Origin: Candidatus Bathyarchaeia archaeon
GTDB taxonomy: Archaea > Asgardarchaeota > Heimdallarchaeia > JABLTI01
Length of the DNA stretch: 32,000 bases
Assembly: GCA_035528035.1 (NCBI GenBank)
Contig: DATKZI010000026.1
Coordinates: 187,053-219,052, forward strand
Direction: 5' to 3'
Part shown: positions 1 through 26,644 of the stretch, piece by piece
Numbering within the stretch: the stretch's first letter is position 1
Layout: the number at the start of each line of letters is the position of its first letter
Translations under genes and position numbers: made by a program
Notes under the pieces: model-generated
Databases searched by the model: none
What the model saw: only the letters and a program-made list of their open reading frames with translations
What the model was told of the DNA's origin: nothing

Positions 1-1404
1 GAACAAGAGAGTAGTAAGCGGATTATAAATTCTAAAGATTATTTACAAAATGATGGAATAGCGCCAGACATAAAACGAGTAATTTTTGAATTATTAAAAT
101 TATTAAGAGAAAAACCAAAGAAAATATTACCAGAAGAAGGGTTGGAGCAATTAATTGATAATTGTTCAAAAACAGATATTCTGCGAGCAAAGGAAATAGC
201 AAGAAATGAAGCTCTTATCAAAATAATTGAAAGTTCACCGGATGATTCAACTGAAAAAATCAATCTTTTGAAATTAACTGAAAGAGGAGATGAATACTAC
301 CGAAGTTATTTGAATCTACAAAAACAAATTCCCTTAATTTCCATTACTTCTCTTGCTGTTGAGAAGAATTTTGAAAGAGATATTTTGGAACGTATGGGGA
401 ACGCTGATAAATACATTGAAGTAGGAAATTATGACAAAGCCATAGAAAATTTGTTGGAAATATCTGTGAGAATGTTAGCGGTATTACCAGAAGAGGATAG
501 ATTCAAGAATGGAAAAGAAGCTGCTAAATTACTTGAAAAGTGGTCCTATTTATCGTCCTCAAAAGAAACAGGCAATACTAGTATAGTTAAGCGATTATTC
601 ATGGAGTTTTCTCAAATAGTTGTAAATAGCCTTAAAACAATAAAACAACAAACAATAAAGACAGATGATTTAGAACAGAATTCCGAACCAAAGAGATCAG
701 CTAATGTTAGCAATAAAAAGAAGACAAGTAATAACAATGACACAGAAAATGATGATGATTTTGAAATTGATTTTAATATAGTAAATAAATCAGCTACTGA
801 ACCTGTAAAGATCGACCCATGGAAAAAACAAGTAGAAGTTATTGATGAAGCAAAGAGTAAAAATACTCAAACAACATCCAATGAAGACTCAAGTTTATTT
901 AAAGCCGCTGCAGCAGATCTACGATCAGCAGGTATGGCTCACATAGATGATAAAGGGGATATCTATAACCCCAAAAAAGACAATATCTTTGCCGATGATT
1001 TTTTTGAACGTGAACCTGATTTAGAAATTTTAAATAAAAATCCTTTCGCACCAATTAATGATAAGGATGATTCAGCGACAGTTATTATAGATAGTCAAAT
1101 AGCAAAATTGGACCAATTAAAAACAAAATTAATGATTCGAATAGCTCAAGCACTTGGAGTATCAGTTATTGATGATGAGAAATTCATCTGGCACGTTCTA
1201 GAGACCAGATATAATGGAAAACTAGATGAGAAATATACTATCTCAGAAATTGTTACCCTAATGAAAACCCTTTATCATGATGCAATGAATAAGGCATTAA
1301 TTTCCGAAATAACTTTCGCTAAAATTGAAAAGCTAATTTCTAGTGAATGTTTGCTTACTGATAATCTAATTATTGATTTGAAACAATATGTTCAAGACCT
1401 ATAA
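1..1404 (+). CDS. hypothetical protein, 5'-truncated at window edge (charged, Asp/Lys/Asn-rich; no domain recognised)
   Basis: Frame 1 is open from base 1 (GAA CAA GAG ...) to TAA at 1402-1404. The track's TTG start at 142 lies inside this open frame, so the true start is probably upstream of the window. Confidence 0.55.
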   Translation, partial: EQESSKRIINSKDYLQNDGIAPDIKRVIFELLKLLREKPKKILPEEGLEQLIDNCSKTDILRAKEIARNEALIKIIESSPDDSTEKINLLKLTERGDEYYRSYLNLQKQIPLISITSLAVEKNFERDILERMGNADKYIEVGNYDKAIENLLEISVRMLAVLPEEDRFKNGKEAAKLLEKWSYLSSSKETGNTSIVKRLFMEFSQIVVNSLKTIKQQTIKTDDLEQNSEPKRSANVSNKKKTSNNNDTENDDDFEIDFNIVNKSATEPVKIDPWKKQVEVIDEAKSKNTQTTSNEDSSLFKAAAADLRSAGMAHIDDKGDIYNPKKDNIFADDFFEREPDLEILNKNPFAPINDKDDSATVIIDSQIAKLDQLKTKLMIRIAQALGVSVIDDEKFIWHVLETRYNGKLDEKYTISEIVTLMKTLYHDAMNKALISEITFAKIEKLISSECLLTDNLIIDLKQYVQDL

Positions 1405-2865: not shown

Positions 2866-3678
2866 TCATTTGGGTTGCTGTAATTGAGTGTATTCGTATA
2901 AACTAATTAGATCTTTTTGAAGTCTCCTGAGAAGAATGATTGGTGCTAAACGATCTGCTGCTAATTCACGATCAAAAACAATGAGTAGAATTTCAAGTTG
3001 TTTCATCACATAACTTGTATAATGTTGAGTGATTGGTAATTGCGGATTGCCTGATATAAGATGAATTGTACCGGTATATGTTTTATCAGTAATCAAAGTA
3101 GTAACATCCCATAGTAATTCCTCAGTTATAGGTACTCCTTCATCTTTAAGGCGAGTTAAAATAGCTTCCACTAAAGGTTTGATATTTAATAGTTTTTTAA
3201 TTTCTTTTATGATAGAAGGTTCTTCAGGAATGATCTTATACAATCGATATTGATTTAATAAATGGTATTTGTGATATATAGGGTGTTGAGTTGGAATAGA
3301 ATCAATTTTTGTTTTAAGTGAAGAACTAACATATTCACCATCAAAAGTAAGATTAACCAGATGAATGGCTGAACCAAAGGTTAAGAGATTTTTTCGCATA
3401 AACATATTTACAGAAGCATAAATATCACTATCACTCCAGATTTGAACCGTTTGTTCAATGGAAAATGGATCAATTAAAGTTAGTCTAAGATAGGGTTTTT
3501 TGTTTTTCGCTACAAGGTCTATAGCATCTTTTAAGGTAGCAAAAATACTTACAGTACCTGGCTTGACCATTTCTTTGAAGAATAATATCGGTTCAGAATC
3601 TATCAATTTCAATAACTCCTCAGTTTTTTCTTTGATGTTTATTCTCATACCACTTTTTAGAGATTGCGCAATTGACAA
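2866..3678 (-). CDS. hypothetical protein with a probable N-terminal OB-fold and a helical C-terminal domain
   Basis: 270-aa ORF. Residues ~38-125 (VKPGTVSIFATLKDAIDLV...YLRLTLIDPFSIEQTVQIWSDSD...FGSAIHLVNLTFDGEY) follow the alternating beta-strand pattern of RPA/SSB-type OB folds. Confidence 0.5.
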   Translation of the reverse strand: MSIAQSLKSGMRINIKEKTEELLKLIDSEPILFFKEMVKPGTVSIFATLKDAIDLVAKNKKPYLRLTLIDPFSIEQTVQIWSDSDIYASVNMFMRKNLLTFGSAIHLVNLTFDGEYVSSSLKTKIDSIPTQHPIYHKYHLLNQYRLYKIIPEEPSIIKEIKKLLNIKPLVEAILTRLKDEGVPITEELLWDVTTLITDKTYTGTIHLISGNPQLPITQHYTSYVMKQLEILLIVFDRELAADRLAPIILLRRLQKDLISLYEYTQLQQPK

Positions 3679-3787: not shown

Positions 3788-5425
3788 ATGTCTCAACAAA
3801 ACATTCCAATTATACTACTAAAAGAGGGCACAACCCGAACACGAGGGAAAGAAGCTCAAAAGAACAATATGAGAGCTGCTATGGCTATTGCTGAAGCAGT
3901 ACGTTCAACTCTTGGACCAAAAGGTTCAGATAAAATGCTTGTTGATTCTCTTGGTGATGTGGTCATTACTAATGATGGTGCTACAATTTTAGAAGAAATA
4001 GATGTCGAACATCCAGCTGCAAAATTGATGACTCAAGTTGCAAAAACTCAAGATGATCAAGTTGGCGATGGAACAACTTCTGCAGTAATATTAGCTGGAG
4101 CACTCCTAAAAAATGCTGATGCATTAATTGAAATGGGAATTCATCCATCCATAATTATTTCTGGTTATAAAAAAGCAACAGATAAAGCACGAGAGGTTCT
4201 CGATAAAATAGCTATCGATATTGATCCTCAAGATAAAAAGACTTTACTTAAAGTTGCTTCTACTGCATTAAATAGCAAAGTTGTTTCAGCTGAAAAAGAT
4301 TTAATGACTGAAATAGCTGTTGATGCAGTTCTTCAAATTACTGAGGAACGTAATGGCAAACGAATAGCTAATCTTGACTGGATTAAAATTGTTCAAAAAG
4401 CTGGCAAAGCATTAGGTAACACCCAACTTATTAAAGGTGTTTTACTCGATAAAGAAATAGTTCATCCAGGTATGCCTAAATTTATTGAAGGCGCAAAGAT
4501 TGCTTTAATTGATGATAACATTGAAATTCAAAAGACAGAGTTCAGTGCTGAAATAAAAATCGAAGAAACAAGCCAGATGCAAGCTTTCCTTGATAGAGAA
4601 CAACAAATGATCGAAGAAATGGTTCAAAAAATTGTTAAGTCAGGTGCAAATGTACTTGTCTGTCAAAAAGGCATAGATGATCTAGCACAACATTTCTTAG
4701 CTAAGAAAGGTATTTTAGCTGTTCGTCGTGTCAAGAAAAGCGACATGGAAAAACTTGCCCGAGCAACCGGTGGTAAAATTGTCTCAACAGTTTACGAATT
4801 AACAAAGGACGATCTTGGTGTTGCAGGCAAAGCAGAACATATGAAAATCGGTGATGATGATAATGTTCTTATTTCTGAAGGAAAGAATCCTCGTTCTGTA
4901 ACTATCCTTGTTAGAGGTGGCAGTAAATATATCACTGATGAAGCTGAAAGATCATTAAATGATGCTTTGTGTGTAGTTAGAGATGCTATCGAAGATGGGA
5001 AAGTTGTCGCAGGTGGTGGAGCTTCTGAAGTTGAAATCGCATTGGTTCTTCGTAGTCTTGCTGAAAGTATTGGTGGACGTGAACAATTAGCCATTGAGAA
5101 ATTTGCGGATGCTATGGAAATCATTCCTAAAACTTTAGCTGAAAATGCAGGTCTTGATGCTATTGATATCGTTACAGAGATTAGATCAAAACATACAGGT
5201 GTTGATGGACCACATTTTGGAATTGATCTCTTCAAAGGTAAAGTGGGTGATTTAACTAAATCAGGTGTTATCGAACCTCTTAGAGTAAAATCACAAGCTA
5301 TACGATCAGCATCAGAAGCAGCTGAATTGATTCTTCGAATTGATGATGTCATAGCTGCAAAATCAAAACCAGCTGGTGCCGGTATGCCTGGTGGTATGCC
5401 TGGTGGCATGATGCCTCCAATGTAA
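3788..5425 (+). CDS. ths: thermosome subunit (group II chaperonin, CCT/TCP-1 family)
   Basis: 545 aa. Hallmark motifs present: [34 protein letters not shown]. The C-terminal [14 protein letters not shown] tail is typical of chaperonins. Confidence 0.97.
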
Positions 5426-5524: not shown

Positions 5525-6088
5525 TCAGATGGATGTTATTGCTTCTAGTTCTTTTCTCAAATCGTCAATATCTTTTTCGTTCAAATCAACTTCTTCAGAT
5601 TCACCGAAATCACTAGTCTTTACAGAAATTGTTTTATCTTTGATTTCTCTTTCTCTTTGTTGTAAAAATCTTTTCTCTCGAGCTTGTAAATCGGATTTAA
5701 TTATCTCAAAGAAATTATTGAATTGAGCTAAATCGTTTGGTGGAATTACCCAATAACGATTGGGTGAAAAACTAAAGGATTCCATCCCTAAACCAAAAAC
5801 ACTTGAACGTAGTTTTATTAAATTGCTAAATTCACCCAAATATGTAACTATGCAAATATTTCCATCAGTTGTTACAGGTAACCAATCTATTGAATTTCTT
5901 GTTCTAACTAATGAAACAATTCTACGTAATTTTTTTTCTTTTTCCCCACCACAGTTTTGAAAAACCCAGAGTGAGCAAACAGTCTCATCCTTTTCAGGTG
6001 TTCCTTTACTGCTATCTGTAGGGATTTTTATATTGTCTATAGTGATGGCTTTATTGGGTTCAGTAGCTTTTGGATTCATATAAATCAA
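5525..6088 (-). CDS. hypothetical protein
   Basis: 187-aa ORF with an alternative ATG at 6079. It has a charged, coiled-coil-like C-terminus. No motif recognised. Confidence 0.5.
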   Translation of the reverse strand: MIYMNPKATEPNKAITIDNIKIPTDSSKGTPEKDETVCSLWVFQNCGGEKEKKLRRIVSLVRTRNSIDWLPVTTDGNICIVTYLGEFSNLIKLRSSVFGLGMESFSFSPNRYWVIPPNDLAQFNNFFEIIKSDLQAREKRFLQQREREIKDKTISVKTSDFGESEEVDLNEKDIDDLRKELEAITSI

Positions 6089-8504: not shown

Positions 8505-8582
8505 TGGAGCCGTTAGAGGGATTCGAACCCTCGATCTACTGATTACGAATCAGTCGCCTTAACCGAGCTTGGCCATAACGGC
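8505..8582 (-). tRNA. tRNA-Thr (anticodon CGU), no intron, CCA encoded
   Basis: The reverse complement folds as a cloverleaf. Acceptor stem GCCGTTA/TAACGGC. D arm carries GG. Anticodon stem ACTGA/TCAGT with loop TTCGTAA. Variable loop is 5 nt. T arm GAGGG-TTCGAAT-CCCTC. Discriminator U, then CCA. Confidence 0.93.
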
Positions 8583-14028: not shown

Positions 14029-14904
14029 TTGAAGTTACGAAAGAATCCCTTATTAAAAATAATTAAAAACAGAAAAGCTGTATCTGAAATATTAGCTGCA
14101 ATAATGATGATTTTTATGTTCATAGCAGCAATAGGGGTAGTTTGGGCTTGGCTCTTTCCAGCCTATCAACGTTTTCAAACAACAAATACAATTAATAGTG
14201 TAAATTCGTATATGTTAAGAGTGGATGAAACATTTTATGATATCTATGGAGAAGGTGTTGGTTCAACAAAGGCTGTGAGAATGGATCCAAGTTATGGAAC
14301 TTTCATTTATGAATCGGGTAGGAATGTCAGTGTAAGATTTTCCGATGCAGGAACTACTTTTAGTGATACTTATACTCTAACTGATCTTGGAAGATTTTCT
14401 TATACTTTGAATAATCGTCGTGGAGTTATGATAAACGAAGGCGACCATAAATATCTGAAGGGACCATCAACTCAAAAGGTGTTTTTCGTTAATGGTTCGG
14501 CAGACGGGGTAGTTTACCAAGGACTAACTAATTTGACACTTTTACGTCCAGCAGAAAAAAGTATGAAAATGGAGTTAGAATACCGGGTAAGAATTTATAC
14601 ATGGTTTGACCAAACAAACAATGTTTTATCAATAACAGTTAATATTATACAAATAGATATTAAAGCAACAGATTTTTCATTCTTTAGTTATAATACCTTG
14701 AAAATTAATTATAACAGCTCTAGAACAGTTTACAGTACAACTACTAATGTAGCAACAGATTTCTATGTTGATGGATCAATAGATTCACAAAGTTTTATTC
14801 CCATTGAACGACCTTTGTTGTTTAATAAACCGAGTTCTGTTGTAAATTATGACGTAAATATAGAAATAGTTGTCAATCAATTCTTGTTATGGGTTGGTGG
14901 ATAA
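14029..14904 (+). CDS. archaeal type IV pilin-like protein (class III signal peptide)
   Basis: The TTG start is preceded by AGGAG. The N-terminus KNRKAVSEILAAIMMIFMFIAAIGVVWAW matches the archaeal pilin/archaellin N-terminal pattern (RK-G/A | VS-x-(I/V)...). The remainder is Ser/Thr/Asn-rich and looks extracellular and beta-rich. Confidence 0.65.
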   Translation: MKLRKNPLLKIIKNRKAVSEILAAIMMIFMFIAAIGVVWAWLFPAYQRFQTTNTINSVNSYMLRVDETFYDIYGEGVGSTKAVRMDPSYGTFIYESGRNVSVRFSDAGTTFSDTYTLTDLGRFSYTLNNRRGVMINEGDHKYLKGPSTQKVFFVNGSADGVVYQGLTNLTLLRPAEKSMKMELEYRVRIYTWFDQTNNVLSITVNIIQIDIKATDFSFFSYNTLKINYNSSRTVYSTTTNVATDFYVDGSIDSQSFIPIERPLLFNKPSSVVNYDVNIEIVVNQFLLWVGG

Positions 14905-16291: not shown

Positions 16292-17131
16292 TTAATGCTT
16301 ATTTAATTCGAGTAAATTATCAATTATTTTTTCAAAAATTTCTCTAGATTTACCTTCTACAGCAACAATTGGTTTTCCTTCATCTGCTAGAGGAACAATC
16401 TTAGGATCAAGTGGTATTGCCCCTAAGAAAGGTATCTTTAATTCCTCTGCTGCTTTCTTACCGCCATCTTTGCTAAAAATATTTACTTCTTGATTGCAAT
16501 GAGGACAAACAAAACCACTCATATTCTCAATTATTCCTAAAACTTTCATACCAACTTTTTCTACAAAACTAATAGATTTTATAACATCAAGTAATGCTAC
16601 TTCTTGAGGAGTTGTTACAATTATTACTCCATCTGCTTTTGGAATCATTTGAGCAACACTAAGAGGTTCATCACTAGTTCCAGGTGGTAGATCGATAATC
16701 AAATAGTCTAAATGACCCCATTTAACATCACCTAGGAATTGGTTAATAGCACCCATTTTAAGTGGACCTCTCCAGATTACTGCATCTGCTTTATTTTCTA
16801 ATAAGAATTCCATGGAAATTACTTTTACACCAAAAGTAGATTCTATCGGAATGATTTTCTTTTGTTCTGAATCGAAATCTGGGTGTTCATTTTCCAAACC
16901 AAGCATTTTTGGTACATTAGGACCTGTAATATCAGCATCCAAAATACCAACCGAAAATCCTCGTTTAGCTAAGGCTGTAGCTATATTTATTGCAACGGTT
17001 GTCTTTCCTACTCCTCCTTTCCCACTTGCTACAACGAAAACATGATCAATGTCTTTTAGAGCAGCCATTATCTTTGCTTTAAGTGGATCAATACTGGGAA
17101 CACCAGTTGGCATTTTTACTTTTTCATTCAT
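16292..17131 (-). CDS. apbC: Mrp/NBP35/ApbC-family Fe-S cluster carrier ATPase
   Basis: 279 aa. It has the deviant Walker [10 protein letters not shown], the DxPPGTSD motif and the cluster-ligand motif CPHC. Confidence 0.92.
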
Positions 17132-17264: not shown

Positions 17265-17594
17265 TTAACACCAAGTTATCACTTTATCATATTGATCCAT
17301 AATAATGGATATTGCTTCATCATAATTTACCTGTTTTATTCCAGGATGAACATTTTCCGTAAAGATGCCACGAGCTTCTAAATCTTCCTTAACAGCAAAG
17401 ATGATCATGCCATTATTAGCAGCTTCAGCAATAATGTTCTGACCACCCTTCCAGCAAGCAAGAGTACTATCTTGAATGAGTAGAATGCCAATTTCGACTC
17501 CTTTATTCATTTGAGCTTTTGTGATATCAAGAAGTGTACTTTGAGCTGCACAAGTATAGATGCTTTTAGAAGTTATATAAAGTACTTTTGTCAT
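17265..17594 (-). CDS. dsrH: DsrH/TusB-family sulfur-relay protein
   Basis: The likely start is MTKVLY at 17594; the track start at 17609 abuts the upstream stop. Pattern LLIQDSTLA...IFAVKEDLEARGI matches TusB (LLLLQDGV...VYALNEDLIARGL). Confidence 0.8.
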   Translation of the reverse strand: MTKVLYITSKSIYTCAAQSTLLDITKAQMNKGVEIGILLIQDSTLACWKGGQNIIAEAANNGMIIFAVKEDLEARGIFTENVHPGIKQVNYDEAISIIMDQYDKVITWC

Positions 17595-17609
17595 TAATCT
17601 AACCTCCAT

Positions 17610-17969
17610 CTAAAGAGCAATTGTTGCATCTGCAAGCAACAAAAGATCACTTAATTCTTGTATAGAGATAATTTTTACCTCTAAACCGGAATCTAAATCT
17701 TCAGGTTTTATTCCTCTTTGTTTCAATGAAGATTCACAAGCGAATATTGGTATATCATATCTGTGCATTGATTCAAGTGCACCTATAACAGAATGATGAC
17801 CTATTCCATCAGGTTTTTGATTTTTGATCAGATTAAAGACTCCATCGTCAATAAAAATAGCATCTGTTTCGACATCTAGAACTAATAAACCTTGAGCTAC
17901 TCGAATACCTTCTAAACTATTGATTTGTCCGTAAGGTCCCTTACGAAATATAACAATAACTTTCTCCAT
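17610..17969 (-). CDS. dsrF: DsrF/TusC-family sulfur-relay protein
   Basis: 119 aa. Pattern GPYG...EGIRVAQGL...IFIDDGVFNL...QKPD...IFACESSLKQRGI closely parallels E. coli TusC. Confidence 0.85.
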   Translation of the reverse strand: MEKVIVIFRKGPYGQINSLEGIRVAQGLLVLDVETDAIFIDDGVFNLIKNQKPDGIGHHSVIGALESMHRYDIPIFACESSLKQRGIKPEDLDSGLEVKIISIQELSDLLLLADATIAL

Positions 17970-17980
17970 GAGTGTTCCCT

Positions 17981-18346
17981 CTATGCTGTAAAGATTAAGA
18001 TACGATCAGAGTCTTCAACGAATTCGCTAAGAGCTCCTAGACCATCAAAATTAGTTCCTTCTAGTAATAGGTCATTATTTTGTGTCCCACGATATTCAGC
18101 ACAAATTGGACAAGCAACAACTTTAACTCCTTTAGCAGCAAGCTCTTTGAAGAGTTCAGCTATGTTTCTATCCCGATCATCAGATGGTTTAATCGTATTT
18201 ACATTATTATAAACACCATCAGTATACAAGTAAATTCCAGTAACCTCATGTCCAGCTTTTAGAGCTGCATTTGCTAATTTTATTACAGTATCCGAATTCT
18301 GGAAACTATAAGGTGAGGTCATTAAAAGAAATGCCAGTTTACCCAT
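17981..18346 (-). CDS. dsrE: DsrE/TusD-family sulfurtransferase
   Basis: 121 aa. Pattern SPY...AALKAGHEVTGIYLYTDGVYN...VVACPICAEYRG...GLGALSEF parallels TusD. The active-site Cys is in register, with G at +8. Confidence 0.85.
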   Translation of the reverse strand: MGKLAFLLMTSPYSFQNSDTVIKLANAALKAGHEVTGIYLYTDGVYNNVNTIKPSDDRDRNIAELFKELAAKGVKVVACPICAEYRGTQNNDLLLEGTNFDGLGALSEFVEDSDRILIFTA

Positions 18347-18519
18347 TTTTATTTCACCTTGAATACTAAAATCAAACGAATTGATAAATGTTTAAGTGAT
18401 TTGGTTTAAAAACTAATGTTTTCTCACCTTAGAAAATAAATACTAAAATTTATTTAAAGAACATATAACATAGTATCAAATTTATATTATTAAATAAACC
18501 TTAAGGAATTTTGAATATA

Positions 18520-18939
18520 ATGGCTGAAACAAAAAGAATGGCTATTGTCGTTCATTCTGGTACCCTTGACAAAGCTTACCCCCCCTTGATGTTAGCTGCT
18601 GCAGCTGGTGCATCTGATATGGAAGTTGATTTATTCTTCACTTTCTGGGGATTAAACCTTTTAAAGAAAAAAGGTCTAAAACGTGCTAAATTATCTGGCA
18701 TGTGGAGACTTGGAACTGGAATGATGAGATTGATGATAAAGCGAACTGGTATGGCTACATTACCTGACTTATTAAAAGCAGTAGTAGAAACAGGAAAGGT
18801 AAGGTTATATGCTTGTACTGCTACAATGGATATAATGATGGTTAAAAAGGAACAATTAATACCAGAAGTAACAGGATATATGGGTGCAGCAGGATTTTTA
18901 GATATTGCTGCAGATTGTGATATTCAATTGTTCATATAA
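18520..18939 (+). CDS. DsrE2/DsrE3-like (DsrE/DsrF/DrsH family, COG2210-type) sulfur carrier
   Basis: MAETKRMAIVVHSGTLDKAYPPLMLAAAAGA...FFTFWGL...LYACTATMD...GAAGFLD. The conserved Cys lies in the ACT context. The track start (TTG at 18511) is 3 codons upstream. Confidence 0.75.
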   Translation: MAETKRMAIVVHSGTLDKAYPPLMLAAAAGASDMEVDLFFTFWGLNLLKKKGLKRAKLSGMWRLGTGMMRLMIKRTGMATLPDLLKAVVETGKVRLYACTATMDIMMVKKEQLIPEVTGYMGAAGFLDIAADCDIQLFI

Positions 18940-18953
18940 AAGGTGAAATAATA

Positions 18954-19196
18954 TTGACTGACTTGCCCAAGGCTGATAAAACACTTGATGCACGAGGAAT
19001 GCAATGTCCACTACCCATTTTAAAAGCAAAGAAGGAAATTGTTACTTTAGAAATGGGTCAAGTATTAGAAGTACTTTCTAATGATCCTGGTTCAAAAGAA
19101 GATTTTCCAAGATGGGCTAAAAGAACAGGTAATGAAATGTTAGGAATTTTTGATGAAGACGGTTACGCACGATACTTCATCAAAAGACAAGCTTAA
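18954..19196 (+). CDS. tusA: TusA/SirA-family sulfur carrier
   Basis: 80 aa. The TTG start is preceded by AGGTGA at a 7-nt spacing. The signature LDARGMQCPLPILKAKK (CP-x-P motif) is present. Confidence 0.88.
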   Translation: MTDLPKADKTLDARGMQCPLPILKAKKEIVTLEMGQVLEVLSNDPGSKEDFPRWAKRTGNEMLGIFDEDGYARYFIKRQA

Positions 19197-19240
19197 TTGC
19201 TTGTATTCCTTATTTTACCTCTTTAAAGAAACAGATTTCT

Positions 19241-19258
19241 TAGCTATTTTTTTAGCTA
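19241..19258 (+). terminator. hairpin TAGCTA-T6-TAGCTA nested in a longer imperfect stem (19218-19278), downstream of tusA
   Basis: A 6-bp stem with a T6 loop. The outer arms CCTCTTTAA / TTAAAAGAGG pair with one bulge. Confidence 0.3.
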
Positions 19259-19283
19259 GTTTATTTCCTTAAAAGAGGCAAAC

Positions 19284-19291
19284 TTTAAATA
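19284..19291 (+). promoter_or_regulatory. archaeal TATA box (TTTAAATA) with an A-rich BRE-like element, for the 5S locus
   Basis: AAACTTTAAATATA. A TATA centre about 26-28 nt upstream predicts a transcription start near A19314 or G19316, just 5' of the flanking helix. Confidence 0.55.
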
Positions 19292-19318
19292 TAGAACAAT
19301 TATCCTTTTCGATACGCG

Positions 19319-19467
19319 AAAACTCATCGCTGGAAGTTAAGCCTTCAAACGTTGTGATAATTACTGATCTGAGCGATCGTTCGGGAACATCATAAAGCTG
19401 CGTCGCGACGCGGTCATAGCTGAAGGGTAACACCCGGACTCGTCCGATCCCGGAAACGATGAGTTTT
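19319..19467 (+). other. BHB-like processing structure bracketing the permuted 5S
   Basis: The outer helix is 11 perfect bp: AAAACTCATCG (19319-19329) with CGATGAGTTTT (19457-19467). The central 4-bp helix is CUGG (19330-19333) with CCGG (19450-19453), including one G-U pair. Two 3-nt bulges lie on opposite strands, each 3' of its central-helix strand: AAG (19334-19336) and AAA (19454-19456). The inner helix is weak or absent, so the motif is relaxed (HBh'-like). Confidence 0.6.
19336..19455 (+). rRNA. rrf: 5S rRNA gene in circularly permuted order (3' portion first, 5' portion second); 120-nt core
   Basis: 19336-19405 reads GUUAAGCCUUCAAACGUUGUGAUAAUUACUGAUCUGAGCGAUCGUUCGGGAACAUCAUAAAGCUGCGUCG. 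This covers the loop B 3' side, helix II 3' strand, helix V, a loop E-like element, helix IV and the helix I 3' strand. 19406-19455 reads CGACGCGGUCAUAGCUGAAGGGUAACACCCGGACUCGUCCGAUCCCGGAA. This covers the helix I 5' strand, loop A (CAUAGC), the helix II 5' strand and helix III/loop C. Long-range pairs hold: helix II 19421-19426 with 19342-19347, helix V 19352-19358 with 19389-19395, and helix I 19397-19405 with 19406-19414. Confidence 0.8.
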
Positions 19468-19592
19468 GTGCTCTAATTTTATTTTAATTCATATTTGTTA
19501 AATCAATTTGAATTTAATGTTAATTTTTTTTAGAAAAAAATTAATAATAATAAAAACTTCGTTGAGTAGAAAAGATTGAATGGATTATAACA

Positions 19593-20642
19593 ATGAACAA
19601 GAAAATCAACTTATTTACATTGGTGATAATCTCACTACTAATAATAAGCTTTTCAGCTCCAATAGATAGATCACCAATATCTAATGTTCAAGCAATTGAT
19701 ACATTAAATATTGTTGCTTCAATATCGATTGTCGCAGATATAGCTACACAAATAGGTGAAGGACTTTTTACTGTTGATAGCATTGTCTCAGGTTCAGAGA
19801 ATCCCCATTTGTATGAACCTACTCCTAGTGAGGTCGAAGCAGTTGCTAATGCTGATTTATTTATAAGATTAAATTTAGAAGATTTAGAGCCATGGGTTGA
19901 TGCAGTTCTTTTAGCTAATCCTGATGTCCCAGTTTTAAATTTAGTTAATCCTTCTATGGAACGATATGATTCCTTAATCGATGCATATAATCCTCACGTC
20001 TGGATGGATCCAACTAATGTAAAAACAATGGTTGATAAGATCTATGATGAAATAGTTGTACTTGATCCAGCAAACAATGCAACCTATACAACCAATAAAG
20101 ATTCATACACAACAGAGTTAGATAGCTTGTTAGTGTTGATAAACACTACAAAAGCTGTATTTCAAGGAATGAAAGTGGTTGTTCATCATCCATCATTTAT
20201 GTACTTGTTTGATCTTTTAGGAATAGAAAGACTAGGGATTATCGAACAAACAGAAGGTGAAGAACCTTCTCCTGAACATATTGCTGAGATAATTGAAATA
20301 ATCAGGACAGAAAATGTAACATTACTAATCAATCAACCACAATTAGATGAAAGACAAGTCTCAGAAATTGCTCGAGATACAGGATTACAAATAGGAGAAC
20401 CAACTCCTCTATTAGGAGTGCCAGATGTAGAAGGTTTAGTACAAGCTCAAGGGAGGATTATAGACAATTATATTACAATGATTGAATATGACCTTGAGGC
20501 GCTAAAAAATCCACATGATCCAGCAAAAATTACTGATAAAGCAACCTTCTGGACCTTAGTAGGGCTTGGAAGTGCTGGTTTTATTGCAACATTTATTGCT
20601 GTTATTGTAGTAAGAGTTAGGAAACCAAATGAGGTAGCATGA
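19593..20642 (+). CDS. metal (Zn/Mn/Fe) ABC transporter substrate-binding protein, cluster A-I (ZnuA/TroA-like)
   Basis: 349 aa. It has an N-terminal signal/anchor, the motifs NPHLYEPTPSEV, NPHVWMDP and HHPSFMYL, and a C-terminal hydrophobic segment followed by basic residues. Confidence 0.88.
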   Translation: MNKKINLFTLVIISLLIISFSAPIDRSPISNVQAIDTLNIVASISIVADIATQIGEGLFTVDSIVSGSENPHLYEPTPSEVEAVANADLFIRLNLEDLEPWVDAVLLANPDVPVLNLVNPSMERYDSLIDAYNPHVWMDPTNVKTMVDKIYDEIVVLDPANNATYTTNKDSYTTELDSLLVLINTTKAVFQGMKVVVHHPSFMYLFDLLGIERLGIIEQTEGEEPSPEHIAEIIEIIRTENVTLLINQPQLDERQVSEIARDTGLQIGEPTPLLGVPDVEGLVQAQGRIIDNYITMIEYDLEALKNPHDPAKITDKATFWTLVGLGSAGFIATFIAVIVVRVRKPNEVA

Positions 20643-25504: not shown

Positions 25505-26644
25505 ATGCGACTTACTTGGTTAGTTTCAAAACGAGTCTTCAAATTTTTCCTTAGAGATAAACGATTAATTGCTCTAATGCTTATTGTCCCCGTTGTTATG
25601 GCTCTTGTAATTGGTTATGGTTTTGGTGGAGAAATAAAGCATGTTTCAGTTGCAATTGTTAATTTGGATGAACCTACTGCTATTCCAATTTCTTTTAGTG
25701 ATAAATTGATAGATTATTTAGATGATAAAACTGATTTAGTCGATGTTACGTTAATTAGTAGTCCAACATTAGAAAAATGGAATATAACCAAACAAGCTGT
25801 CCTTGATGGTGATTATTACGGTGCGATACTCTTCCCAGAAGGTTTTACAGATACATTAGCTGATCGTTTTCTTAATGGAAGTATGGTTGAAACCTATGTA
25901 GGGATGTTCATAGATAACTCGAATCCTCAAATCAGTGCATCAATTTTGAAAGCTGTTAGCGATGGTTTCCAATCGGAATTTGGAGCAAATATGGGATTAA
26001 CGATTAATACTGAGTTTGCTTTTGATGAAGGTCTTACCCAGTTGCAATATATGATACCTTCAATCATGCCTTTTGCAGTTTTCTTTATGTCATTTATCCT
26101 TTCAATAATTTCCTTGATAAATGAACGAAAAACAGGAACATTGGATCTCTTACTTCTTTCTCCTTACCGTAAAATCAATATTATTTTAGGTTATATGATA
26201 ACATTATCAGTTGTAGGTTTAATACAAGCAACGATACTTCTACTATTAACTATTTTTGCTTTTAATATTCCAATTATTGGTGGTGTTGGTGCCTATTTTG
26301 CAGTATATCTAATGTTATGGCTTAGCGGTCTCTGTGGTATGGGGCTTGGATTTCTGTTGTCAACTGTTGCAAAATCGGAATTACAAGCAGTTCAGTTTAT
26401 TCCCATGGTTATCTTCACAGCACTGTTATTATCAGGTATTCTTATGCCATTAGAAACACTCCCAGTTTGGTTACGACCAATTTCCTATATCATCCCATTA
26501 ACGTTTGGCGCAGAATACACCCGAACAGTGATGATTGAAGGAACAGGATTCCTGTGGCACTGGCATCTGGCACCGGTCATTGGATTTGTCCTCCTAATGG
26601 TCCTCCTCTCTACCTTAACTCTTCGAGAGAAAAAAACATTATAA
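25505..26644 (+). CDS. ABC-2-type transporter permease
   Basis: 379 aa. An N-terminal TM is followed by a large extracytoplasmic loop and then 5 C-terminal TM segments, the typical ABC-2 layout. It starts 2 nt after the ATPase stop. Confidence 0.85.
   Translation: MRLTWLVSKRVFKFFLRDKRLIALMLIVPVVMALVIGYGFGGEIKHVSVAIVNLDEPTAIPISFSDKLIDYLDDKTDLVDVTLISSPTLEKWNITKQAVLDGDYYGAILFPEGFTDTLADRFLNGSMVETYVGMFIDNSNPQISASILKAVSDGFQSEFGANMGLTINTEFAFDEGLTQLQYMIPSIMPFAVFFMSFILSIISLINERKTGTLDLLLLSPYRKINIILGYMITLSVVGLIQATILLLLTIFAFNIPIIGGVGAYFAVYLMLWLSGLCGMGLGFLLSTVAKSELQAVQFIPMVIFTALLLSGILMPLETLPVWLRPISYIIPLTFGAEYTRTVMIEGTGFLWHWHLAPVIGFVLLMVLLSTLTLREKKTL

What the first reader, a model, noticed from the sequence alone, without database searches (positions are those of the whole stretch)
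19314..19485. Circularly permuted 5S rRNA gene
Apart from the tRNA, this is the only GC-rich island in an AT-rich window, and it carries a near-complete set of conserved archaeal 5S rRNA elements in the wrong order.

The 5' third lies downstream, at 19406-19455: helix I 5' strand CGACGCGG, loop A UCAUAGC, helix II 5' strand UGAAGG, and helix III/loop C ACACCCGGACUCGUCCGAUCCCGGAA. The 3' two-thirds lies upstream, at 19336-19405: GUUAAGCC-UUCA, AACGUU, helix V UUGUGAU/AUCAUAA, the loop E-like AUUACUGA...GGGAA, helix IV, and helix I 3' strand CUGCGUCG.

Rotating the sequence to start at 19406 gives a molecule that aligns block by block with textbook archaeal 5S (CAUAGC...CACACCCGG...CCCGGAAGUUAAGCC...AGCGUU...AGUACUGG...GGGAA). 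All long-range helices (I, II, V) still pair across the rearrangement. The locus has its own TATA box (19284-19291) and downstream T-tracts, so it looks like a functional gene, not debris.

Permuted 5S genes are known to me only from some organelle genomes, and I am not aware of one described in Archaea.
Basis: partly seen in the sequence, partly recalled or inferred. Interest (0 to 1): 0.93.

Follow-up and report, generated by a model that had tools for sequence, protein, structure and literature searches.

The report
Permuted 5S rRNA gene, Asgard archaea
A group of Heimdall-type Asgard archaea encodes its 5S ribosomal RNA with the two parts in swapped order, flanked by a conserved splicing-type stem that should cut the RNA out and join it into a 120-nt circle; this probably explains why standard tools find no 5S gene in these genomes.

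Summary
Window 19406-19455 matches Rfam 5S positions 1-51 and 19336-19401 matches positions 52-115; the native order gives no hit at threshold. A covariance model built only from rotated canonical 5S genes of unrelated Hadarchaeota hits 19336-19455 end to end (78.3 bits, E about 3e-15).

Thirteen distinct versions from independent assemblies keep the arrangement without indels. They sit in conserved synteny (TusA-5S-ZnuA), behind a conserved TATA-like box, and show compensatory changes in 5S helices. This rules out a mis-assembly or debris.

Nine of its pairs change on both sides. It continues into a 4-bp helix (CYGG/CCGG) with 3-nt bulges AAG and AAA, a bulge-helix-bulge motif. Canonical cuts at 19335|19336 and 19455|19456 plus ligation would restore the canonical junction CCCGGAA-GUUAAGCC in a 120-nt circle. 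Cleavage and ligation are inferred.

The native 5S ends are fused with no spacer, and the apex varies like a YNYG tetraloop. The RNA may therefore stay circular.

I found no description of this in the searchable literature. One paper reports that 5S could not be predicted in circularized Heimdallarchaeum genomes.

The parts
19277..19293 (+). Candidate archaeal promoter (GGCAAACTTTAAATATA). It contains the TATA-like box 19284-19291 and lies about 25-30 nt upstream of the base of the stem.
   Evidence: The block AAACTTTAAA is identical in all 12 relatives at the same distance. Promoter function is inferred from position and conservation only. The sigma-70 scan is not applicable.
19316..19329 (+). 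Leader strand of the 14-bp leader-trailer (processing) stem, helix h of the BHB.
   Evidence: It pairs with 19457-19471, with G19468 bulged. Across 13 sequences 95.6% of cells are paired and 9 of 14 pairs change on both sides; 0/500 shuffles reach the observed score. RNAalifold recovers the stem independently.
19330..19333 (+). Leader strand (CUGG) of the 4-bp central helix H of the BHB. It looks like a remnant copy of the 5S sequence CCGG.
   Evidence: It pairs with CCGG at 19450-19453. The sequence is CYGG in 12 of 13 sequences (98.1% of cells paired). It can also pair with CCGG at 19434-19437, which the MFE and RNAalifold structures prefer.
19334..19336 (+). 5' bulge AAG. The predicted cut is at 19335|19336, so G19336 becomes the 5' end of the excised RNA.
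   Evidence: Invariant in 13 sequences. The cut position follows the BHB rule (between bulge nt 2 and 3), which I checked on a tRNA-Thr intron in L047. Cleavage itself is inferred.
19336..19405 (+). 3' two-thirds of 5S rRNA (Rfam positions 52-120): loop B/helix II 3' strand, helices V and IV, loop E region, helix I 3' strand.
   Evidence: Compensatory changes occur in helix II and helix V.
19404..19407 (+). Point where the native 3' and 5' ends of 5S are fused with no spacer (19405|19406). This is the apex of helix I.
   Evidence: The four bases read CGCG, CUCG, UGUG, UUCG or UGCG in the 13 sequences. Pair 19405:19406 is broken in 5 of 13, while the other 7 helix I pairs never break. RNAalifold draws a 7-bp stem with a 4-nt loop.
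19406..19455 (+). 5' third of 5S rRNA (Rfam positions 1-51): helix I 5' strand, loop A, helix II 5' strand, helix III/loop C.
19450..19453 (+). CCGG. It forms the 3' strand of helix III in the mature fold and the 3' strand of BHB helix H in the precursor.
   Evidence: Invariant. Both pairings score 98-100% paired.
19454..19456 (+). 3' bulge AAA. The predicted cut is at 19455|19456, so A19455 becomes the 3' end of the excised RNA.
   Evidence: Invariant. The two predicted cuts are exactly 120 nt apart. Joining them gives CCCGGAA-GUUAAGCC, the junction seen in canonical 5S genes.
19457..19471 (+). Trailer strand of the leader-trailer stem (G19468 bulged).
   Evidence: see the leader strand.
19477..19485 (+). 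T-run TTTTATTTT, a candidate archaeal terminator.
   Evidence: Read directly from the sequence. Relatives also have T-rich tracts after the trailer. Function is inferred.

Best explanation
This is the functional 5S rRNA gene of a Heimdall-group (Gerdarchaeota-like) Asgard archaeon, encoded in circularly permuted order.

A transcript of about 170 nt starts just upstream of 19316 and ends in the T-run at 19477-19485. Its leader and trailer pair into a 14-bp stem. The stem continues into a bulge-helix-bulge motif: 3' bulge AAA, 4-bp helix CUGG/CCGG, 5' bulge AAG.

The archaeal splicing endonuclease would cut at 19335|19336 and 19455|19456, and the RNA ligase (RtcB type) would join the ends. That restores the canonical 5S junction CCCGGAA-GUUAAGCC and produces a covalently closed 120-nt RNA containing every 5S element.

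The native 5S ends are fused with no spacer, and the apex behaves like a tetraloop. The circle is therefore most likely the mature ribosomal form, not an intermediate.

Shown: the permutation, its conservation, selection on the 5S helices and on the flanking stem, and the exact geometry of the motif. Inferred: transcription limits, cleavage, ligation and the final topology.
For: - **Permutation:** Split Rfam hits abut at model positions 51/52. The rotated-canonical model R1 hits 19336-19455 full length at 78.3 bits.
- **Conservation:** There are 13 distinct versions without indels from independent assemblies, in conserved synteny.
- **Selection on the 5S helices:** Compensatory changes occur in helices II and V.
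- **Selection on the flanking stem:** It has 14 bp, 9 of them with changes on both sides, and 95.6% of cells paired. 0/500 shuffles reach the observed score, and slid controls collapse to about 40% paired.
- **Bulges and central helix:** The leader sequence CYGG-AAG and the AAA bulge are conserved although the leader part is not in the mature RNA.
- **Cut geometry:** BHB geometry puts the two cuts exactly 120 nt apart and reproduces the canonical junction.
- **Cut rule checked in the clade:** A tRNA-Thr intron in L047 has H = UUCG/CGAA and bulges UA|A and AC|A.
- **Energetics:** The BHB conformer lies 0-4 kcal/mol above the MFE and is itself the MFE in 2 of 11 sequences.
- **Enzyme specificity:** Asgard archaea are reported to carry (alpha-beta)2 EndA with the L1 insert, which is linked to relaxed BHB recognition (PMC5829648).
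- **Closed apex:** The four apex bases vary as YNYG (UUCG or UGCG in 7 of 13), and the terminal pair is broken in 5 of 13.
- **Tolerance of closed ends:** E. coli tolerates 5S with its native ends closed by a tetraloop (PMC7283268).
- **Missing 5S in related genomes:** 5S could not be predicted in circularized Heimdallarchaeum genomes (PMC8813620).
Against: - No RNA data exist for this locus. Cleavage, ligation and circularity are all untested.
- In most sequences the MFE and the RNAalifold consensus pair the leader CYGG with the helix III 5' strand (19434-19437) instead of forming helix H. Covariation cannot separate the two pairings because both partners are invariant CCGG.
- There is no canonical inner helix h'. 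The 5' bulge opens into a multi-branch junction, so the motif is of the relaxed hBH type.
- L046 has CCGA in helix H, giving one mismatch.
- L047 carries a copy with a 55-nt internal deletion, so at least that genome must have another 5S locus.
- I could not scan the rest of this genome for a canonical 5S.
Confidence: 0.7

Rival explanations
1. The pathway is the same up to the circle, but the circle is only an intermediate. An endonuclease reopens it at the apex of helix I (near 19405|19406), giving an ordinary linear 5S rRNA, as happens with permuted tRNA genes.
For: This is the precedent set by permuted tRNA genes, as summarised in PMC4267664. Archaeal circular pre-16S and pre-23S are usually described as re-linearised (PMC12918454; PMC10515664). 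Helix I is exactly 9 bp long, the same as in canonical relatives. Pair 19404:19407 is always Y:G.
Against: There is no spacer between the native ends for RNase P or tRNase Z type trimming. A single precise nick in a GC-rich helix end has no known enzyme. The terminal pair is broken in 5 of 13 sequences, and the second apex base varies freely, as in a tetraloop.
Confidence: 0.25
2. The RNA is cut out of the leader-trailer stem but never ligated. The mature 5S would be a linear, permuted molecule with its ends at G19336 and A19455 and helix I closed by a loop, like the permuted mitochondrial 5S of brown algae.
For: Permuted mt-5S rRNAs remain permuted in the final product (PMC4267664). The tetraloop-like apex fits this reading as well as it fits a circle. 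Pairs G19336:C19431 and U19337:A19430 could hold a nicked junction together.
Against: In archaea, RNAs excised at BHB motifs (tRNA introns, pre-16S, pre-23S) are found circularised (PMC3326292; PMC12918454). The cuts fall so that ligation restores the canonical sequence exactly. A nick would lie in the loop B/helix III region, which is highly conserved here.
Confidence: 0.15
3. The locus is a non-functional or accessory relic. The working 5S would be a canonical gene elsewhere in the genome.
For: L047 has a copy with a 55-nt deletion, so some genomes in the clade must have another 5S locus. Three contigs of a related lineage end near this locus, as expected for a repeated sequence. I could not scan whole genomes.
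Against: The 120-nt core has no indels in 13 versions and 90% mean column identity. Changes in 5S helices and the flanking stem are compensatory, and the promoter block is conserved. An arrangement-neutral 25-mer scan of metagenomes found only permuted copies of the AT-rich Heimdall type; all canonical hits were Hadarchaeota. No canonical 5S could be predicted in circularized Heimdallarchaeum genomes.
Confidence: 0.04
4. The arrangement is an assembly artefact of this contig.
For: None found.
Against: The identical sequence occurs in ENA, JGI and Logan assemblies. The same arrangement is present in at least five NCBI genomes and several JGI metagenomes, with sequence differences between them.
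Confidence: 0.01

Closest known systems
Circularly permuted tRNA genes (Cyanidioschyzon merolae; Soma et al. 2007, as cited in PMC4267664)
   Same: The 3' part of the RNA is encoded upstream of the 5' part. Leader and trailer form a BHB-type motif at the point where the two parts must be joined. Expression goes through endonuclease cleavage, ligation and a circular RNA.
   Different: The RNA class differs (5S rRNA, in an archaeon). In permuted tRNAs an intervening sequence separates the native 3' and 5' ends and is removed by tRNA end-processing enzymes. Here the native ends are fused with zero spacer and the apex looks like a tetraloop, so re-opening is not obviously provided for.
Archaeal circular pre-16S/pre-23S rRNA pathway (BHB in the processing stem, EndA plus ligase)
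   Same: A long leader-trailer helix carries a BHB that flanks the rRNA, leading to excision and circularisation.
   Different: Those genes are colinear with the mature RNA. 5S rRNA is stated not to use this route (PMC12918454). In M. maripaludis and Haloferax, 5S ends are made by other endonucleases. Here circularisation would be needed to restore 5S connectivity, not only to release the RNA.
Circularly permuted 23S rRNA of Pyrococcus/Thermococcus, and circular 23S rRNA within archaeal ribosomes
   Same: These are rRNAs whose topology differs from the gene because of BHB circularisation. They set a precedent for covalently closed rRNA inside mature ribosomes (PMC7758197; PMC12918454).
   Different: In those cases the gene is colinear and the RNA becomes permuted or circular. 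Here the gene is permuted and circularisation restores the canonical order. The subunit component also differs (5S).
Permuted mitochondrial 5S rRNA of brown algae (Rfam mtPerm-5S; Valach et al. 2014, PMC4267664)
   Same: A 5S rRNA gene with its domains in permuted order.
   Different: It is organellar, highly derived and A+T-rich. The product stays permuted, and no BHB or processing stem is described. No mtPerm-5S match was listed for this locus, although clan competition in the tool could hide a weaker overlapping hit.
Engineered cp5S rRNA in E. coli (Huang et al. 2020, PMC7283268)
   Same: The native 5S ends are closed with a tetraloop and the ribosomes still work.
   Different: It is artificial, bacterial, and opened at loop C or D to be grafted into 23S rRNA.

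Membership tests
5S rRNA (Rfam RF00001) | Colinear match to the covariance model at or above the gathering score (38 bits) | tested here: not met
   There is no hit at gathering on the window or on eight related loci. The best native-order hit is 17.5 bits.
5S rRNA (Rfam RF00001) | All structural elements present (helices I-V, loops A, B, C, E) once the order is corrected | tested here: met
   The split hits cover model positions 1-51 and 52-115. The rotated-canonical model R1 matches positions 1-121 of 121 at 78.3 bits with two non-standard pairs. 91.7% of cells are paired across 13 sequences.
5S rRNA (Rfam RF00001) | Incorporated into the large ribosomal subunit | not testable with these tools
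   This needs ribosome purification, RNA-seq or cryo-EM.
Bulge-helix-bulge motif (hBHBh', substrate of archaeal splicing endonuclease) | Central helix of 4 bp | tested here: met
   19330-19333 pairs with 19450-19453. The helix is CYGG/CCGG in 12 of 13 sequences.
Bulge-helix-bulge motif (hBHBh', substrate of archaeal splicing endonuclease) | Two 3-nt bulges on opposite strands flanking that helix | tested here: met
   The bulges are AAG (19334-19336) and AAA (19454-19456), both invariant. G19336 can alternatively pair with C19431, which would leave a 2-nt 5' bulge.
Bulge-helix-bulge motif (hBHBh', substrate of archaeal splicing endonuclease) | Outer helix h of at least 2 bp on the exon side | tested here: met
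   The leader-trailer stem has 14 bp with strong covariation.
Bulge-helix-bulge motif (hBHBh', substrate of archaeal splicing endonuclease) | Inner helix h' of at least 2 bp closing the second bulge | tested here: not met
   U19337 and C19449 and the following bases do not pair. The 5' bulge opens into a multi-branch junction. The motif is therefore of the relaxed hBH type. Asgard EndA is reported to be of the broad-specificity kind (PMC5829648).
Bulge-helix-bulge motif (hBHBh', substrate of archaeal splicing endonuclease) | The motif is the preferred fold of the precursor | tested here: inconclusive
   The BHB conformer lies 0-4 kcal/mol above the MFE and is the MFE in 2 of 11 sequences. RNAalifold prefers the leader paired to 19434-19437.
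Bulge-helix-bulge motif (hBHBh', substrate of archaeal splicing endonuclease) | Actually cleaved by EndA within the bulges | not testable with these tools
   This needs an enzymatic assay or end mapping.
Permuted RNA genes expressed via a circular intermediate (permuted tRNA type) | 3' part upstream of 5' part, with a BHB formed by leader and trailer at the required junction | tested here: met
   The predicted cuts restore the canonical junction.
Permuted RNA genes expressed via a circular intermediate (permuted tRNA type) | Intervening sequence between the native 3' and 5' ends that is removed to re-linearise the circle | tested here: not met
   The native ends abut at 19405|19406 with zero spacer in all 13 sequences.
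Permuted mitochondrial 5S (Rfam mtPerm-5S) | Match to that covariance model | tested here: inconclusive
   No such match was listed at E up to 10 on 19200-19600. The tool keeps only the best of overlapping hits from one clan, so a weaker overlapping hit could be hidden.

The most novel reading that the evidence does not exclude
A whole clade of Heimdall-group Asgard archaea uses a covalently closed, circular 5S rRNA in its ribosomes. The RNA would be made from a permuted gene by the tRNA-splicing machinery and never re-opened. The permuted gene would have arisen from a tandem 5S duplication, and the leftover palindromic CCGG supplied the central helix of the splice motif.
Probability: 0.42. 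Interest if true: 0.92.

Novelty: new variant of a known kind. Interest (0 to 1): 0.85.

Why it matters
5S rRNA is regarded as the most invariant and easily found rRNA gene. In archaea it is explicitly described as the one rRNA that does not go through BHB circularisation.

A permuted 5S gene that depends on the splicing endonuclease and ligase would be the first rRNA gene of the permuted-tRNA kind. It would extend RNA circularisation to the third rRNA. It also predicts a naturally circular 5S rRNA.

There is a practical side. It explains the "missing 5S" in Heimdall-group genomes: 5S could not be predicted in circularized Heimdallarchaeum genomes (PMC8813620). That gap affects MIMAG-style quality calls for MAGs in a group that includes the proposed closest archaeal relatives of eukaryotes. 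A permuted covariance model would fix the annotation gap.

The finding also gives a simple test case of how permuted RNA genes arise, by tandem duplication and reuse of a palindromic remnant as a splice helix.

Tried and rejected
- **Whole-window Rfam scan at gathering:** It found only tRNA-Thr. I therefore used split-region scans to get truncated hits.
- **Genome contigs pattern scan** (GGAAGTTAAGC..CAYAGY..CCGGAA): It returned 21 loci, all chance matches in bacteria plus one Nitrosopumilaceae coding region (L012).
- **Naming the canonical comparators by exact cluster look-up:** No names were returned. A homology search placed them in Hadarchaeota, so they are not close relatives.
- **ARAGORN on the L047 intron-containing tRNA:** It found nothing. 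I read the intron by hand from the Rfam hit and the sequence.
- **Looking for a closer relative of the deleted L047 copy:** The three contigs obtained all stop before the locus.
- **The sigma-70 promoter/terminator scan:** It is not relevant to an archaeon.
- **An alignment row taken from the wrong coordinates** (L031 7660-7845 in A2): discarded.
- **Rejected readings:** mis-assembly, debris or pseudogene, and a two-piece (split) 5S. The two parts are contiguous on one transcript.
Full report

Yes. The whole 32-kb window has no 5S hit at Rfam's gathering score; only tRNA-Thr at 8505-8582 is found. A permissive scan of 19200-19600 gives a 17.5-bit RF00001 hit. In that hit only 19408-19456 aligns convincingly, to model positions 1-50.

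I then scanned the two blocks separately, so that Infernal could report truncated hits.
- 19406-19455 matches model positions 1-51 (31.8 bits, E 1e-5).
- 19336-19401 matches model positions 52-115 (14.8 bits).

The two parts abut exactly at model position 51/52 and together cover the whole molecule.

I took four canonical 5S genes found later (87-97 bits to RF00001) and rotated them at 51/52. I carried the Rfam consensus structure through the rotation and built model R1. R1 hits the window at 19336-19455 over model positions 1-121 of 121, at 78.3 bits and E about 3e-15 (the calibration is rough), with two non-standard pairs.

One caveat applies. The four genes were retrieved because they share a 25-mer with the window, so part of that score is by construction. 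The split Rfam hits are free of that bias.

The 120-nt core is the most GC-rich stretch of the window (about 52% against 32.7% overall). A coding stretch at 26508-26627 reaches 50.8%.

**2. Whose genome is it, and is the arrangement an artefact?**

The window encodes a thermosome, Nop5, fibrillarin and other archaeal proteins. The closest named relatives of the thermosome and of the Mrp/NBP35 ATPase are "Candidatus Heimdallarchaeota", "Asgard group" and "Gerdarchaeota" MAGs at 77-93% identity. The next hits fall to about 60%. The exact sequence occurs in a 246-kb JGI contig and in ENA and Logan assemblies.

I fetched the neighbourhoods of Mrp homologues and found the same gene order (DsrE/F/H-DsrE2-TusA-[locus]-ZnuA-ABC transporter) in every relative. 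The same permuted 5S sits in the TusA-ZnuA spacer at 86-99% identity.

I also ran an arrangement-neutral metagenome scan with the helix III/loop C 25-mer. It returned 12 loci.
- Seven are AT-rich Heimdall-type copies, and all seven are permuted (six complete, one cut by a contig end).
- Five are GC-rich canonical 5S genes followed by tRNAs. Their RNA polymerase genes place them in Hadarchaeota, an unrelated lineage.

In total there are 13 distinct permuted sequences with no indel over 169 aligned columns (A5). None reaches RF00001 gathering in native order. Mis-assembly is excluded.

**3. Is it under selection as a 5S rRNA?**

On A5, with the rotated Rfam structure, 91.7% of cells form standard pairs. 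Fourteen pairs show changes on both sides. 0 of 500 column shuffles reach the observed pairing or covariation, and sliding the partners by 1-3 columns drops pairing to about 40%.

This is a maintained, presumably transcribed gene.

**4.

The core is bracketed by AAAACUCAUCG (19319-19329) and CGAUGAGUUUU (19457-19467). Three further pairs extend the stem beyond a bulged G19468. The result is 14 bp (19316-19329 with 19457-19471).

Across the 13 sequences 95.6% of cells are paired and 9 of the 14 pairs change on both sides, for example G-C to A-U, C-G to G-C, and UC/GA to CU/AG. RNAalifold finds the same stem unaided.

Immediately inside the stem, the leader continues CUGG-AAG (19330-19336), and the 5S 3' end reads CCGG-AA followed by trailer A (19450-19456). 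Pairing CUGG with CCGG gives a 4-bp helix flanked by a 3-nt bulge on each strand. Together with the outer helix this is a bulge-helix-bulge motif as defined in PMC7714728.

The accepted cut position is between the second and third bulge nucleotide. I checked this within the clade on an intron-containing tRNA-Thr in L047, whose ortholog in the window is intronless. There H = UUCG/CGAA and the bulges are UA|A and AC|A, which gives the canonical 37/38 intron.

Applied here, the cuts fall at 19335|19336 and 19455|19456. They are exactly 120 nt apart. Ligation of the excised piece gives CCCGGAA-GUUAAGCC, the sequence found at that position in canonical 5S genes. The motif was read from the flanks alone, yet it restores the 5S sequence to the nucleotide. 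That agreement is the strongest argument that it is the processing signal.

**5. Weak points of the motif**

- The leader CYGG can pair equally well with the other CCGG, the helix III 5' strand at 19434-19437. There it mimics the mature 3' strand. The MFE structure and the RNAalifold consensus prefer that fold.
- The BHB conformer lies 0-4 kcal/mol above the MFE and is itself the MFE in 2 of 11 sequences. It is accessible but not dominant.
- Covariation cannot decide between the two pairings, because both partners are invariant.
- There is no inner helix h', so the motif is of the relaxed hBH type. Asgard archaea are reported to carry the (alpha-beta)2 endonuclease with the L1 insert, which is associated with relaxed-motif cleavage (PMC5829648).
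- L046 has one mismatch in helix H.

**6. The other junction**

The native 3' end (…GCUGCGUCG, ending at 19405) and the native 5' end (CGACGCGGU…, starting at 19406) are fused with no spacer. Helix I has the same 9 bp as in the canonical comparators.

The four apex bases (19404-19407) read CGCG, CUCG, UGUG, UUCG or UGCG in the 13 sequences. The seven lower pairs never break. The would-be terminal pair is broken in 5 of 13 sequences, and the second apex base varies freely. This is what a YNYG/UNCG-like tetraloop on a 7-bp stem would show, and RNAalifold draws it that way.

In permuted tRNA genes a spacer at this point is trimmed to re-open the circle (PMC4267664). Nothing comparable exists here. 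E. coli ribosomes work with 5S native ends closed by a tetraloop (PMC7283268), and circular 23S rRNA has been reported inside archaeal ribosomes (PMC12918454). I therefore favour a mature circular 5S, but only moderately.

**7. Origin (inference)**

The leader CYGGAA|G repeats the 5S sequence CCGGAA|G that precedes GUUAAGCC in canonical genes. This is what a tandem 5S duplication followed by loss of the outer parts would leave behind. CCGG is its own complement, so the remnant could pair at once with the 3'-terminal CCGG and provide the central helix of a splice motif.

**8. Literature**

Full-text searches found no description of a permuted or circular 5S rRNA gene in Archaea. I searched combinations of permuted or circular 5S, BHB, Heimdall and Asgard. 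The relevant items are these.
- Permuted mitochondrial 5S in brown algae (PMC4267664).
- Low-level, unvalidated 5S circles in Sulfolobus and Halobacterium (PMC3326292).
- The statement that archaeal 5S, unlike 16S and 23S, is not processed through circularisation (PMC12918454).

The library lacks most subscription journals, so prior description elsewhere cannot be excluded.

**9. Open problems**

- L047 carries a copy with a 55-nt internal deletion. The deletion removes helix I and parts of helices II, IV and V, yet the copy keeps the promoter block, the stem and the bulges. That genome must have another 5S locus.
- Three contigs of a close lineage end just before the locus, which hints at a repeat.
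Two questions therefore remain untested here: whether a canonical copy is absent from this genome, and how far the trait extends (Gerdarchaeales only, or wider in Heimdallarchaeia).

**10. Verdict**

The observation and the interpretation are both supported. I add a conserved BHB-type processing stem that predicts excision and circularisation. Together with the spacer-less, tetraloop-like fusion of the native ends, this predicts a possibly circular mature 5S rRNA.

It is a new variant of known kinds (permuted RNA genes, and BHB-mediated rRNA circularisation) applied to an RNA and a lineage where it was not expected.

My confidence levels are:

| Claim | Confidence |
|---|---|
| The locus is a functional permuted gene | about 0.95 |
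| The BHB cleavage and ligation pathway operates | about 0.7 |
| The mature RNA stays circular | about 0.4-0.45 |

Noticed in passing
L047 7680-7760 (minus strand): The syntenic 5S locus of this relative has a 55-nt internal deletion (…CTGAGCG|CACCCGATCCCGTCTGATCTCGGAA). It keeps the promoter block, the flanking stem, CCGG-AAG and the AAA bulge. Helix III has changed from CCGG/CCGG to CCGA/UCGG. It could be a pseudogene, a shorter RNA or an assembly error, and it implies a second 5S locus in that genome.
   Followed up: partly
L048, L049, L050 (contig ends): Three contigs of a lineage close to L047 all stop at or just before the TusA/5S locus. This is what a repeated or strain-variable sequence would produce.
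   Followed up: no
L047 18487-18585 (+) versus window 8505-8582 (-): tRNA-Thr(CGU) carries a 24-nt canonical 37/38 intron with a textbook BHB in L047. The same tRNA is intronless in the window. ARAGORN misses the intron-containing gene.
   Followed up: yes
L026 6147-7676: About 1.5 kb is inserted between the 5S trailer and ZnuA in the closest relative (99% identical 5S). The insert holds a 52-aa ORF and a 205-aa methyltransferase-like ORF. The original downstream sequence resumes after it.
   Followed up: no
L029 7675-7860 and L030 7676-7861 (+): Public gene calls place a 61-aa hypothetical ORF on the strand opposite the 5S locus. It is almost certainly spurious, called because the RNA gene is not recognised.
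   Followed up: no
L034 2033-2153, L037 11062-11182, L039 3926-4046, L041 3845-3966: Canonical 5S genes of Hadarchaeota share an identical 25-nt helix III/loop C with the Heimdall-type permuted genes, despite 66% versus 52% GC overall. Each is followed by tRNA genes, and in L037 the 5S lies near the RNA polymerase operon.
   Followed up: partly
window 3788-5425 and 16292-17131: The exact proteins of this contig are labelled 'Candidatus Bathyarchaeia archaeon' in NCBI. All close relatives (77-93% identity) are labelled Heimdallarchaeota, Asgard or Gerdarchaeota, so this is probably a mislabelled MAG.
   Followed up: partly
window 17265-19196: A conserved DsrE/DsrF/DsrH-like, DsrE2 and TusA sulfur-relay cluster lies directly upstream of the 5S locus. 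A ZnuABC-type metal transporter lies directly downstream.
   Followed up: no
window 142-1404, 1998-2843, 2866-3678, 5525-6088, 14029-14904: Five ORFs of 187-420 aa have no Pfam match at E 0.001.
   Followed up: no
window 26508-26627: This is the second most GC-rich 120-nt stretch (50.8%). It lies inside the ORF 25505-26644, which by position corresponds to the ABC-2 type membrane protein gene of the related loci, and no RNA family hit was found there.
   Followed up: partly
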